NCBI GenBank assembly: GCA_964345805.1
Contig: CAYFSK010000002.1
Coordinates: 9,606-73,605 of the forward strand
Reading direction: 5' to 3'
Length of the DNA stretch: 64,000 nt
Origin: an uncultured Mycoplasma sp.
GTDB lineage: Bacteria; Bacillota_I; Bacilli_A; RF39; UBA660
In this document: positions 51,037-51,879 of the stretch, piece by piece
Layout: every line of letters starts with the position of its first letter
How positions within the stretch are numbered: the first letter of the stretch is position 1
Position numbers and translations under genes: made by a program
The notes under the pieces: generated by a model
The model's database searches: none
What the model saw: the letters and a program-made list of their open reading frames with translations, nothing else
Told to the model about the DNA's origin: nothing

Positions 51037-51417
51037 TTAAATAACTATTTCGCTGTAAGAAGCTTCTTCAACTTTATCTTTACAGTAGCTTCCTCTGGGA
51101 CGAATAATACACATTTCACATACTAGATAATCATCTTTTACATCAGAGAAGTCTTTTAATAGCTTAAAAGCTGCTGAAATGATTGATGGTATAAAAAAGA
51201 TAACGATTGCTAGTAAAAACTTTTTAATCATACTATTAAAACAAGTTTTAGCTACTTTATCATCATCAGTTATAACAGCCTTTCCCAAAGTTAAAATACC
51301 AATAACAATTAGTATGATTGGTAAAACAATCTTAAATATTAGTATAAAATAACCTACTAGTTGCCATATGCCAGCAGTTTGCGCGCAAAAGCCTCCTTCA
51401 GTTCCTATTGTATCCAT
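51037..51417 (-). CDS. small two-TM cysteine-containing membrane protein (paralog A)
   Basis: ATG at 51417 with GAGGGGAT SD. Two TM helices are separated by a DDDK loop. C-terminal CEMC and a further Cys. About 50 percent identical to 51480..51824. Confidence 0.6.
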   Translation of the reverse strand: MDTIGTEGGFCAQTAGIWQLVGYFILIFKIVLPIILIVIGILTLGKAVITDDDKVAKTCFNSMIKKFLLAIVIFFIPSIISAAFKLLKDFSDVKDDYLVCEMCIIRPRGSYCKDKVEEASYSEIVI

Positions 51418-51462
51418 AATATCCCCTCACATGAGCTGATTATAACACATATACCAAAAAAA

Positions 51463-51482
51463 AACTAGTAAAATACTAGTTA
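51463..51482 (-). terminator. intrinsic terminator after paralog B
   Basis: AACTAGTA-aaa-TACTAGTT, then 8 T on the minus strand. Confidence 0.55.
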
Positions 51483-51824
51483 TTTTTGTTTTGGACAACC
51501 TGCATTATCTTTTGGATTAGTAATGCATTTTATACATACTGAAGAATCATTTTTCATGTCTGAATCAACAAGCCCAATAATAGCACTTACAAGTGTTGGG
51601 ATAAAAAAGATTACAACACCAATTATTACTTTTTTAAGTAAACTATTAAATGCGGTCTTAATTTCTTTATCATCATTTGATACAAGAGCTTTTCCAAGAG
51701 CTATTACTCCAATAACAATTAATATTACTGGAACAACTATTTTAAAAATAGCAATAATTTTCCCTATAAATCTCCATATATCTGTAGTACTTGTACAAAA
51801 AGTAGAAACATCACCTAAAAACAT
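51480..51824 (-). CDS. small two-TM cysteine-containing membrane protein (paralog B)
   Basis: ATG at 51824 with AAGGAGTG SD. Same architecture as paralog A (NDDKE loop, CIKC...C tail). It has its own promoter and terminator. Confidence 0.6.
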   Translation of the reverse strand: MFLGDVSTFCTSTTDIWRFIGKIIAIFKIVVPVILIVIGVIALGKALVSNDDKEIKTAFNSLLKKVIIGVVIFFIPTLVSAIIGLVDSDMKNDSSVCIKCITNPKDNAGCPKQK

Positions 51825-51850
51825 AATATTCACTCCTTCTTTATAATCTA

Positions 51851-51879
51851 ATTTTAAATTAAATATCACATAAAGTCAA
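51851..51879 (-). promoter_or_regulatory. promoter for paralog B
   Basis: The minus strand reads TTGACT-17nt-TAAAAT upstream of the AAGGAGTG SD. Confidence 0.5.

What the first reader, a model, noticed from the sequence alone, without database searches (positions are those of the whole stretch)
51037..51869. Tandem paralogous small two-TM proteins with CxxC tails, separately transcribed at the cluster end
The two ORFs (126 and 114 aa) are about 50 percent identical. Each has two TM helices separated by a short DDK/NDDK loop, and a C-terminal soluble tail with CEMC...C or CIKC...C motifs.

Paralog B has its own TTGACT-17-TAAAAT promoter and a hairpin terminator. Paralog A has an extended -10 promoter and abuts the uvrA promoter region. 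The two-TM hairpin topology is reminiscent of VirB2/TrbC-type pilins or small immunity or holin-like proteins. No family was recognised.
Basis: seen in the sequence. Interest (0 to 1): 0.55.

Follow-up and report, generated by a model that had tools for sequence, protein, structure and literature searches.

The report
VirB2-like membrane hairpin proteins beside Tad-like cluster
The two small genes are real, selected paralogs of a little-studied family of pilin-like two-helix membrane proteins (Pfam T4SS_pilin); they are unusual because here they sit at the end of a Tad-type pilus cluster with no type IV secretion genes nearby, in an uncultured gut bacterium.

Summary
Two minus-strand genes, B (51480-51824, 114 aa) and A (51037-51417, 126 aa), are 49% identical. 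Each has two transmembrane (TM) helices, a DDK loop and a CxxC...C tail, and each has its own promoter.

A family is recognisable. B matches Pfam PF18895 T4SS_pilin over the whole profile, at 26.1 bits against a cut-off of 26.6. Of 27 family members, 22 hit it.

The family has a conserved four-cysteine signature and an N-out, loop-in, C-out topology. It is common in gut "Bacilli" MAGs (metagenome-assembled genomes) of RF39 type.

In 64 of 79 species-level loci the small copy directly follows the same Tad-like cluster. In 37 loci a VirB4/VirB6-type type IV secretion (T4SS) module lies downstream, often after arrays of up to about 9 family copies. In 21 loci, and in this window, Tad is present but no T4SS is nearby.

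dN/dS is 0.04-0.37. A consensus promoter precedes the small copy in 67 of 79 loci.

I read the pair as abundantly expressed, probably disulfide-stapled, VirB2-like surface or membrane subunits. Whether the Tad-like machine or an unlinked T4SS handles them is unresolved. Holin and immunity readings are rejected.

Verdict: a new variant of a known kind, of moderate interest.

The parts
51480..51824 (-). Paralog B, 114 aa. This is the 'first-copy' type found in all relatives: a two-TM hairpin with C10 and a C97-x-x-C100...C110 tail.
   Evidence: ORF. PF18895 T4SS_pilin E 8.9e-6, 26.1 bits, protein 13-82 against profile 2-71/71. NF045849 weak. Orthologs are first in gene order.
51037..51417 (-). 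Paralog A, 126 aa. This is the lineage-specific second copy, with N-terminus GTExGFCAQT and tail CxxCxxxPxGxYC.
   Evidence: ORF. 49% identical to B. Orthologs are second in gene order in L001, L007-L012 and L014. dN/dS is 0.24-0.37 against orthologs.
51851..51879 (-). Sigma-70-type promoter of B: TTGACT-17-TAAAAT.
   Evidence: Scan. The same motif lies upstream of the small copy in 67 of 79 loci and in the orthologs.
51833..51838 (-). Ribosome-binding site AAGGAG of B. It fixes the start at the ATG at 51824.
   Evidence: Read from the sequence.
51456..51481 (-). Intrinsic terminator after B: an 8-bp A/T-rich stem (AACTAGTA/TACTAGTT), a TTT loop and a T9 run.
   Evidence: Read from the sequence and folded. 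Orthologous loci keep a hairpin plus T-run with different stem sequences. Not flagged by the G+C-biased scan.
51439..51447 (-). Extended -10 promoter of A: TG-T-TATAAT.
   Evidence: Read from the sequence. TGnTATAAT/TATAGT is conserved at the same place in L001, L007-L012 and L014.
51011..51034 (-). Weak hairpin (GGTGC...GCATC) plus T7 after A. It precedes the uvrA extended -10 (TGTTATAGT, 50997-50989).
   Evidence: Read from the sequence. L007 has a clearer stem, CTACCA/TGGTAG plus T7, at the same place.
51902..52900 (-). 332-aa protein, the usual immediate upstream neighbour of the small copy. Possibly TadZ/CpaE-like (a degenerate MinD/ParA type).
   Evidence: It is the last upstream gene in 48 of 64 Tad-linked loci. 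2 of 15 orthologs have a weak CbiA/MinD hit. No PDB hit. The single-sequence AF2 model failed, pLDDT 33.
52920..53402 (-). 160-aa protein with an N-terminal TM helix. A pseudopilin or TadE/F-like candidate by architecture only.
   Evidence: ORF. No Pfam or NCBIfam hit. Syntenic in relatives.
53406..53890 (-). Two tandem small proteins, 73 aa (53406-53627) and 87 aa (53627-53890). Each starts MK(Q/E)ATGELS, then has one hydrophobic helix and a Cys-rich C-terminal domain. Flp-like pilin candidates.
   Evidence: ORFs. 38% identical to each other. No family hit for the 73-aa one. Absent from 16 loci where the small two-TM gene directly follows the 265-aa gene.
53947..55639 (-). Two polytopic membrane proteins, 265 aa (53947-54744) and 297 aa (54746-55639), in the position of TadC and TadB.
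   Evidence: ORFs. 58-78% conserved across loci. No Pfam or PDB hit. The PilC/GspF likeness of the Clostridia counterpart is reported in PMC9523054.
55650..56759 (-). 369-aa secretion ATPase of the TadA/CpaF/VirB11 clade.
   Evidence: PF00437 T2SSE 1.7e-26. It scores below the cut-offs of VirB11, TadA and TrbB in NCBIfam.
56781..57545 (-). 254-aa CpaB/RcpC-like protein.
   Evidence: TIGR03177 pilus_cpaB 1.7e-5 and PF16976 RcpC 2.1e-4, both below cut-off.
57574..57984 (-). 136-aa DUF5411 protein: an N-terminal TM helix followed by a soluble domain.
   Evidence: PF17424 2.6e-52. 56-85% identical across 120 relatives. The family is tied to a CpaF/PilC 'postulated secretion-related system' in PMC9523054.
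57996..61951 (-). 1071-aa protein with no family match (57996-61211) and a 247-aa protein with a signal-like N-terminus and a C-terminal TM anchor (61208-61951). These are the first genes of the cluster.
   Evidence: ORFs. No Pfam hit. Translation. Syntenic in relatives. The L057 counterpart is a 1230-aa Cys-rich secreted protein.

Best explanation
**What they are.** The pair encodes two paralogous members of a large, unnamed, cysteine-bearing subfamily of the Pfam T4SS_pilin (VirB2-like) family.

**Inferred topology.** Each protein inserts into the membrane as a two-helix hairpin without a cleaved signal peptide. A short acidic N-terminus and the C-terminal tail lie outside the cell. The lysine-rich GKAV...DDKE loop lies in the cytoplasm.

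**Inferred cysteine staple.** Four conserved cysteines sit on the outer face, one before TM1 and CxxC...C after TM2. I infer that they tie the two ends together by disulfides or a bound metal. This would be a non-covalent-backbone counterpart of the head-to-tail cyclisation known for TrbC and VirB2.

**Inferred expression and role.** Each gene is transcribed on its own. B has a near-consensus promoter and a terminator. This fits an abundant structural subunit rather than a stoichiometric machine part. The small 'bare' copies are the conserved lead members of the family. In relatives they are followed by larger copies that carry a signal peptide and a variable extracellular domain on the same hairpin. 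I therefore infer that the small proteins are the major pilin-like or sheath-like surface subunit and the larger ones are decorated variants.

**In this genome.** The pair belongs to a vertically inherited chromosomal Tad-like/DUF5411 cluster and has no T4SS within the window. The most likely reading is that it works together with that Tad-like apparatus. It could do so as a second surface polymer, or as the membrane element through which the apparatus contacts other cells.

**Shown:** family membership at family level, topology direction, conservation, selection, synteny and promoters.
**Inferred:** the disulfide staple, polymerisation, and which ATPase or platform extracts the protein.
For: - **Homology.**
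  - B matches PF18895 over the full profile.
  - 22 of 27 family members hit it, best E 2.8e-7.
  - Precomputed PF18895 marks appear on many relatives.
  - Weak NF045849, NF045848 and NF045889 conjugal-transfer hits are seen in 6-8 of 27 members.
- **Structure model.** AF2 gives a helical hairpin at pLDDT 82.
- **Topology.**
  - The N-terminus carries 0 basic and 2 acidic residues, while the loop carries 5 basic residues.
  - 42 of 49 N-terminally extended relatives start with a signal-like segment.
  - The L052 array proteins show the same layout.
- **Cysteine signature.** It is kept in 140 of 150 representatives and in 102 of 102 close relatives. 52 of 72 small representatives have exactly four cysteines.
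- **Selection.** dN/dS is 0.04-0.37 in loci that lack a T4SS.
- **Synteny.**
  - 64 of 79 loci have the Tad-like genes immediately upstream on the same strand.
  - 16 of those have the gene directly after the TadC-like gene with no Flp-like genes.
  - 21 have Tad but no T4SS within at least 8 kb downstream.
- **Own promoter.** It is present in 67 of 79 loci whatever the context. The terminator and the second promoter are also conserved.
- **No T4SS in the window.** No T4SS protein match was found anywhere in the 64-kb window.
Against: - B scores 0.5 bit under the Pfam cut-off, and A has no direct hit.
- There is no sequence-profile match to any solved T4SS pilin. The Foldseek search of the PDB gave no match.
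- Similarity between hydrophobic hairpins is inherently weak evidence.
- In 10 of the 15 loci with no Tad genes in the available upstream sequence, the small copy heads an array-plus-T4SS module. In L048 housekeeping genes lie directly upstream. The family therefore does not need an adjacent Tad cluster, and its primary partner may be the T4SS.
- Only 64 kb of this genome was seen, so a T4SS elsewhere cannot be excluded.
- Nothing here shows polymerisation, disulfide bonds or high expression directly.
Confidence: 0.55

Rival explanations
1. The pair are ordinary T4SS pilin-like subunits that depend on a VirB4/VirB6 T4SS encoded elsewhere in this genome. Their place at the end of the Tad-like cluster would only be inherited synteny from an ancestral Tad, pilin-array and T4SS supercluster that later split.
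For: - In 27 loci all three modules are colinear, and in 10 more the small copy heads the array-plus-T4SS module without Tad upstream.
- Family arrays abut the VirB6-like gene.
- The small copy has its own promoter in every context, so it is not transcriptionally tied to the Tad operon.
Against: - No T4SS gene was found in the 64-kb window or within at least 8 kb downstream in 21 Tad-linked loci.
- In 16 species the gene is kept directly after the TadC-like gene while the Flp-like, 160-aa and 332-aa genes are lost.
- Adjacency to the Tad cluster is kept across many species with different downstream neighbours: uvrA, an aminotransferase, addB.
Confidence: 0.25
2. The proteins do not polymerise. 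The hairpin would be a membrane anchor or docking module of the Tad-like and T4SS envelope complexes. The small copies would be a fixed integral-membrane component, for example a stabiliser of the platform.
For: - The same hairpin is fused to unrelated extracellular domains, including an Amidase_3 cell-wall hydrolase placed just before the VirB6-like gene. That looks like anchoring.
- The hairpin core is strongly conserved (GKAV, K29, P33, F75).
Against: - A separate strong promoter and a terminator argue for expression above that of the machine genes.
- Sequence conservation is lower than for the machine parts: 35-57% against 58-78% for the TadB/C-like proteins and 56-85% for DUF5411.
- Copy number varies from 1 to about 9. 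This pattern is typical of exposed subunits.
Confidence: 0.15
3. The proteins are a phage-type holin or antiholin pair, or small bacteriocin-immunity proteins, unrelated to the pilus genes.
For: Only the general shape supports this: small size, two TM helices, a charged tail, tandem paralogs, and a CPBP/Rce1-like protease gene 10 kb away.
Against: - No holin family in PHROGs. The only hit is a family of unknown function at E 0.015.
- No relative on the viral contigs or in phage or plasmid records.
- No endolysin or bacteriocin gene is adjacent in the window.
- Synteny with Tad-like and T4SS genes is fixed across 79 species-level loci.
Confidence: 0.02

Closest known systems
Pfam PF18895 T4SS_pilin: VirB2-like proteins, best documented as tandem arrays next to virB4 in Patescibacteria (PMC12102498)
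   Same: - A two-helix hairpin of about 70 residues matched end to end.
- Tandem paralogs. The paper reports arrays of 2-11 genes with up to 54% identity.
- In relatives, the genes sit next to a monoderm-type T4SS with VirB4, a VirB6-like protein, a cell-wall hydrolase and a T4CP.
   Different: - The window proteins sit at or under the Pfam cut-off.
- They lack a signal peptide.
- They carry a four-cysteine signature outside the Pfam domain.
- The host is a Bacilli lineage, not Patescibacteria.
- The genes follow a Tad-like cluster and, in this window, have no T4SS nearby.
Canonical conjugative pilins VirB2 / TrbC / TraA (PF04956 and relatives)
   Same: - A small hairpin of two hydrophobic helices with a basic loop, and both termini on the outer side.
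- Pilin genes are sometimes duplicated.
- Stapling of the termini here would parallel TrbC/VirB2 cyclisation. The cyclisation is from my own knowledge and was not tested.
   Different: - No PF04956 hit and no match to solved pilins.
- No leader peptide.
- The host is a monoderm. Monoderm T4SS classes are described as lacking VirB2 homologs (PMC4027160; PMC12102498).
Mollicutes ICE small membrane proteins (NCBIfam NF045849 'Mbov_0395 family pilin-like conjugal transfer protein', NF045848, NF045889)
   Same: Weak but repeated profile similarity: 6-8 of 27 family members, best E 3.2e-4. The host group is related (low-GC, reduced-genome Bacilli and Mollicutes).
   Different: All scores are far below the curated cut-offs, for example 17.7 against 40 bits. 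There is no ICE context in the window. The locus is chromosomal and syntenic with uvrA across species.
DUF5411 / CpaF / PilC 'postulated secretion-related system' of gut Clostridia (PMC9523054) and classical Tad/Flp pili
   Same: The neighbouring cluster shares DUF5411, a CpaF/TadA-type ATPase and polytopic platform-like proteins, together with a CpaB-like protein and Flp-like small proteins.
   Different: - That paper lists no T4SS_pilin-like gene.
- Classical Flp pilins have one helix and a G/xxxxEY processing motif (my own knowledge). The pair has neither.
- No prepilin peptidase was seen in the cluster.
IncI plasmid R64: a type IV pilus encoded alongside a conjugative T4SS
   Same: A type IV filament system and a T4SS are encoded together and thought to cooperate in cell-cell contact (PMC4027160; PMC12102498). 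This parallels the Tad-like, array and T4SS superclusters in relatives.
   Different: R64 is a plasmid of a diderm host. Here the system is chromosomal, in a monoderm lineage, and in this window the T4SS half is missing.

Membership tests
Pfam PF18895 T4SS_pilin | Whole-protein score at or above the gathering cut-off (26.6 bits) | tested here: inconclusive
   B scores 26.1 bits, E 8.9e-6. A has no hit. Of 27 family members, 22 hit at E<=0.01, best 2.8e-7. Many relatives carry a precomputed PF18895 mark. A is tied to B by 49% identity.
Pfam PF18895 T4SS_pilin | Two-helix membrane hairpin covering the whole ~71-position profile | tested here: met
   B residues 13-82 align to profile positions 2-71 of 71. 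There are two hydrophobic segments. AF2 helices span 15-49 and 53-86 at pLDDT 82.
Pfam PF18895 T4SS_pilin | Encoded next to T4SS genes (VirB4, VirB6, T4CP) | tested here: not met
   No T4SS protein match in the 64-kb window. The feature is met in relatives: 37 of 79 loci have the T4SS module downstream.
Canonical VirB2/TrbC pilin (PF04956) | Profile match to TrbC/VirB2, or similarity to solved conjugative pilins | tested here: not met
Canonical VirB2/TrbC pilin (PF04956) | Cleaved N-terminal leader peptide | tested here: not met
   Only about 10-16 non-hydrophobic residues precede TM1. Larger array paralogs in relatives do have signal-like N-termini.
Canonical VirB2/TrbC pilin (PF04956) | Polymerises into an extracellular pilus; termini joined (cyclised) | not testable with these tools
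   This needs filament isolation or cryo-EM and mass spectrometry. The only indirect evidence is the four conserved cysteines on the outer face.
Flp/Tad (type IVc) pilin | Single N-terminal hydrophobic helix preceded by a short leader with a prepilin-peptidase site | tested here: not met
   The pair has two TM helices and no such motif. The neighbouring 73- and 87-aa proteins are the Flp-like candidates.
Phage holin | Match to a holin family and/or a phage lysis-cassette context | tested here: not met
   PHROGs: no hit for A; for B one family of unknown function at E 0.015. No relatives on viral contigs or in phage records. Neighbours are pilus-type genes and uvrA.
Tad-like (type IVc filament) gene cluster, as the context of the pair | TadA/CpaF ATPase, TadB/TadC platform proteins, CpaB/RcpC, Flp pilin and TadV peptidase | tested here: inconclusive
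   The ATPase is met (T2SSE 1.7e-26). CpaB/RcpC is weak and below cut-off. The TadB/C-like proteins have no profile or PDB hit. The Flp-like proteins are identified by architecture only. No peptidase was seen among the cluster proteins scanned, and the rest of the window was not scanned.

The most novel reading that the evidence does not exclude
The VirB2-like hairpin protein might be a working part of the Tad-like machine itself. Either it is the fibre subunit that a type-IV-filament ATPase and platform extract and polymerise, or it is an obligatory membrane conduit of that machine. That would make a hybrid of the two great pilus-building systems in a monoderm. The observation that permits this reading is that in 16 species-level loci the cluster has lost the Flp-like genes, the 160-aa gene and the 332-aa gene. 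It keeps the hairpin gene directly after the TadC-like gene, with no T4SS in the locus.
Probability: 0.12. Interest if true: 0.85.

Novelty: new variant of a known kind. Interest (0 to 1): 0.5.

Why it matters
**A standing generalisation would need revising.** Surveys of conjugation systems state that monoderm T4SSs lack VirB2-type pilins (PMC4027160, PMC12102498). This family shows that a widespread gut Bacilli lineage carries VirB2-like proteins, often as arrays next to a monoderm-type T4SS. That mirrors the arrays described for Patescibacteria in PMC12102498. The lineage is RF39-type by my own knowledge of the MAG names.

**An unexpected partner.** The family also turns up welded to a Tad-like cluster where no T4SS is nearby. 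This suggests either a functional coupling of the two pilus systems or a T4SS-independent role for a VirB2-like protein.

**A possible surface apparatus in an uncultured lineage.** These organisms are uncultured and, by my own knowledge, have reduced genomes. A conserved, probably highly expressed surface apparatus is therefore a good candidate for how they attach to or exchange material with other cells.

**A testable structural idea.** The four-cysteine staple could be a different solution to joining pilin termini.

Tried and rejected
1. **Sequence-profile search of the family against all PDB chains.** It returned only chance GPCR-like hits at E>2.
3. **Holin and immunity readings.** PHROGs, viral contigs, phage records and plasmid records were all negative. 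Rejected.
4. **The 332-aa neighbour.**
   - The single-sequence AF2 model was useless, pLDDT 33.
   - A profile search of the PDB was empty.
   - Only 2 of 15 orthologs gave a weak MinD/ParA hit.
   - TadZ-likeness therefore stays a guess.
5. **The 297- and 265-aa membrane proteins.** There were no PDB hits, and hhalign found no detectable paralogy between them. 'TadB/TadC' rests on position and architecture only.
6. **DUF5411 homolog search, meant to reach the Clostridia version of the system.** It returned only close relatives, at least 56% identical. The supplement of PMC9523054 lists no pilin-like gene. Whether the hairpin gene belongs to that wider system is therefore unknown.
7. **Identity of the source organism.**
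   - An exact look-up of B by encoding contig failed.
8. **Rfam and tRNA scans of the window.** Nothing was found, so the intergenic hairpins are not known RNA elements.
9. **Mirror ORFs on the plus strand (51523-51846 and 51179-51352).** I disregarded them because they lie entirely antisense to the two conserved genes; I did not test them further.
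Full report
**1. The observation**

Both ORFs lie on the minus strand: A at 51037-51417 (126 aa) and B at 51480-51824. B is 114 aa from the ATG that follows an AAGGAG ribosome-binding site. The finding's end coordinate, 51869, belongs to the mechanical GTG-extended ORF.

The two proteins are 49% identical over 107 residues, E 3e-27. Each has two long hydrophobic segments. These are joined by a lysine- and aspartate-rich loop, KAVITDDDKVAK in A and KALVSNDDKEIK in B. Each ends in a soluble tail with CxxC and a further cysteine.

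**2. Regulatory signals**

- The promoter TTGACT-17-TAAAAT upstream of B was found by the scan.
- The hairpin after B (AACTAGTA-TTT-TACTAGTT plus nine T) is too A/T-rich for that scan.
- In orthologous loci the same position holds a hairpin plus T-run with different stem sequences. This is compensatory change.
- That hairpin is followed by a conserved extended -10, TGnTATAAT.
- Across 79 species-level loci, TTGAC[AT]-N16-18-TAnA[AT]T lies within 160 nt upstream of the best-matching small copy in 67. Seven of the other twelve are loci where the best match was the second gene of a pair, whose first gene carries a TTGACA promoter.
- From base composition I estimate about 0.3 such matches by chance. 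This is my own rough calculation.

Separate transcription is therefore well supported.

**3. The family**

B matches Pfam PF18895 T4SS_pilin over the entire profile (residues 13-82 against positions 2-71 of 71). The score is E 8.9e-6 and 26.1 bits, against a cut-off of 26.6. B also gives a weak hit to NCBIfam NF045849, 'Mbov_0395 family pilin-like conjugal transfer protein'. A has no direct hit but is clearly B's paralog.

Evidence from the wider family:
- Of 27 aligned family members, 22 hit PF18895, best E 2.8e-7.
- Between 6 and 8 give weak hits to three Mollicutes ICE conjugal-transfer families.
- A profile search of 1.84 billion representatives found 8997 relatives at E<=1e-3 and 3807 at E<=1e-10.
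- No source gives any of them a name beyond 'hypothetical protein'.

The invariant residues are C11, G22, K29, P33, G45-K46-A47, K57, F75 and C100. The signature C-x(81-94)-CxxC-x(4-16)-C is kept in 140 of the 150 best representatives and in all 102 close relatives. Of 72 small representatives, 52 have exactly four cysteines.

**4. Topology**

The N-terminus has no basic residues, while the loop has five. Many relatives are longer proteins in which the hairpin is C-terminal. In 42 of 49 such cases it is preceded by a signal-like N-terminal segment and a variable, often cysteine-rich, domain. This places the start of TM1 outside the cell, so the loop is cytoplasmic and the tail is outside. All four conserved cysteines then face outward. 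AF2 models A as a helical hairpin with two short tail helices, at pLDDT 82.

**5. Genomic context here**

Upstream, on the same strand, lie the following genes, listed in the direction of transcription:

| Protein | Evidence |
|---|---|
| 247 aa, anchored | signal-like N-terminus, C-terminal TM anchor |
| 1071 aa | no family match |
| 136 aa | DUF5411, 2.6e-52 |
| 254 aa | CpaB/RcpC-like, weak |
| 369 aa | T2SSE ATPase of the TadA/CpaF/VirB11 clade, 1.7e-26 |
| 297 and 265 aa | polytopic membrane proteins in the TadB/TadC position |
| 87 and 73 aa | single-helix, cysteine-rich, Flp-like proteins |
| 160 aa | N-terminal helix |
| 332 aa | possibly MinD/TadZ-like |

'Tad-like' is thus supported for the ATPase and weakly for CpaB. 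For the rest it rests on architecture. A related DUF5411/CpaF/PilC operon in gut Clostridia has been flagged as a 'postulated secretion-related system' (PMC9523054).

Downstream are uvrA (real start 50967) and lgt. No T4SS protein matches anywhere in the 64-kb window.

**6. Context in relatives**

A scan of one genome per species found at least 293 relatives. The best 79 loci are gut MAGs labelled mostly Bacilli bacterium. Others are labelled Mycoplasma sp. CAG:472 or CAG:776, uncultured Tenericutes, uncultured Muribaculaceae, Erysipelotrichaceae, Candidatus Coprovivens and Candidatus Ventrenecus. Coprovivens is Bacilli incertae sedis. That these correspond to GTDB order RF39 is my own knowledge.

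| Context of the small copy | Loci (of 79) |
|---|---|
| Tad-like genes immediately upstream, same strand | 64 |
| of these, directly after the 332-aa gene | 48 |
| of these, directly after the TadC-like gene, with no Flp-like, 160-aa or 332-aa genes | 16 |
| of the 64, T4SS module also downstream | 27 |
| of the 64, no T4SS within at least 8 kb downstream | 21 |
| No Tad genes in the available upstream sequence | 15 |
| of these, small copy heads an array plus T4SS | 10 |

These counts come, and L057 was inspected.

The T4SS module comprises a VirB6-like protein, a small protein, a TraC-like protein, VirB4, a SpoIID-type hydrolase and, where the locus reaches far enough, a coupling protein. 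In L048, a locus without Tad genes upstream, housekeeping genes lie directly upstream of the small copy.

Arrays reach about nine copies. One copy in L052 fuses an Amidase_3 hydrolase to the hairpin.

In every context the small 'bare' copy is the best match to the window pair (41-57% identity). Array copies are 23-42% identical.

**7. Selection and age of the duplication**

In the uvrA-type loci the first gene is B-like and the second A-like. Three loci have only the first gene. A is therefore a lineage-specific duplicate that predates several species splits. Nei-Gojobori dN/dS is 0.24-0.37 for the window genes against their orthologs and 0.04-0.20 for closer pairs. Both copies are under purifying selection in loci without a nearby T4SS, so they are not decaying relics.

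**8. Interpretation**

What is shown:
- The pair belongs to a VirB2-like (T4SS_pilin) family.
- The proteins are membrane hairpins with both ends outside.
- They carry four conserved outward-facing cysteines.
- They have dedicated promoters.
- They are conserved beside Tad-like and/or T4SS modules.

What I infer:
- The cysteines staple the two ends together.
- The small copies are abundant structural subunits and the fused copies are decorated variants.
- In this genome the pair works with the Tad-like apparatus.

The main rival is dependence on a T4SS encoded elsewhere. It cannot be excluded from a 64-kb window.

A non-polymerising anchor role is also possible, and the hydrolase fusion favours it.

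Holin and immunity readings are rejected. PHROGs gave no holin match, the viral contigs held no relative, and the phage and plasmid records held none.

**9. Comparison with what is known**

Surveys of T4SS classes report no VirB2 homologs in monoderm systems (PMC4027160). A 2025 study found PF18895/PF04956-type 'VirB2-like' arrays of 2-11 genes next to virB4 in Patescibacteria and left their origin open (PMC12102498).

The family described here shows the same arrangement in a Bacilli lineage. It adds three differences:
- the cysteine signature;
- no leader peptide in the small copies;
- tight linkage to a Tad-like cluster, even where no T4SS is nearby.

I found no paper that describes this.

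**10. Verdict**

It is a new variant of a known kind rather than a new class. Interest is moderate. It would be high if the hairpin protein proved to be handled by the Tad-like machine.

Noticed in passing
L052:9932-18325; also L021, L025, L037, L038, L048: Relatives carry arrays of up to about nine T4SS_pilin-like genes between the small copy and a VirB6-like gene. Most are 250-440-aa proteins with a signal peptide, a variable cysteine-rich extracellular domain and the C-terminal hairpin. This is the Patescibacteria-style 'VirB2 array', but in a Bacilli lineage whose T4SS class is said to lack VirB2 homologs.
   Followed up: partly
L052:14729-15964: This 411-aa protein fuses an N-acetylmuramoyl-L-alanine amidase domain (Amidase_3, 1.8e-13) to a T4SS_pilin-like hairpin that lacks the CxxC tail. 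It lies immediately upstream of the VirB6-like gene. It may be a membrane-anchored cell-wall hydrolase of the T4SS.
   Followed up: partly
window 53406-53890 (-): Two tandem Flp-like small proteins (73 and 87 aa, 38% identical) begin MK(Q/E)ATGELS. This is not the usual G/xxxxEY or GFxxxE prepilin motif. They end in domains with 6-7 cysteines. No prepilin peptidase was seen in the cluster.
   Followed up: partly
L057:1328-10393; also L047, L051, L053, L054, L056, L058, L059, L064, L065, L069, L077, L079, L081, L084, L085: This is a minimal eight-gene form of the cluster: anchored protein, giant Cys-rich protein, DUF5411, CpaB-like, ATPase, two platform-like proteins and the hairpin protein. 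It has no Flp-like, 160-aa or 332-aa genes, and housekeeping genes lie on both sides.
   Followed up: partly
window 57996-61211 (-) and L057:2092-5784: The first large gene of the cluster (1071 aa here, 1230 aa in L057) has no Pfam match. In L057 it is a secreted, extremely cysteine-rich protein with CxxC-type runs. It is a candidate adhesin or tip protein of the apparatus.
   Followed up: no
window 62050-63506 (+): Two genes are transcribed divergently from the cluster start: a CPBP/Rce1-like intramembrane protease (PF02517, 2e-15) and a 263-aa protein with no family. G+C drops to 22% there. Whether they are linked to the cluster in other genomes was not checked.
   Followed up: no
window 57574-57984 (-): [quoted passage not shown] It has an N-terminal TM helix like a pseudopilin.
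   Followed up: partly
window 48166-51033 (-): The mechanical uvrA ORF (955 aa from a GTG) runs up to 4 nt from the stop of paralog A. The real start is the ATG at 50967 (MDKIIVKGAR...), preceded by an extended -10 and an RBS. The apparent gene abutment is therefore an ORF-calling artefact.
   Followed up: yes
window 1-64000: No Rfam family reached its gathering score and no tRNA was found in 64 kb. Every ORF of 100 aa or more that I judged plausible up to 61951 is on the minus strand, and GC skew is uniformly negative. This fits one long leading-strand stretch of a low-GC (about 28%) Bacillota chromosome.
   Followed up: no
L004:3924-7001: In GCA_947631475.1 a 1025-aa amine-oxidase-domain protein is inserted between the TadC-like gene and the Flp-like genes. 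The ATPase there is 646 aa instead of about 369. The cluster therefore tolerates large insertions and domain gains.
   Followed up: no
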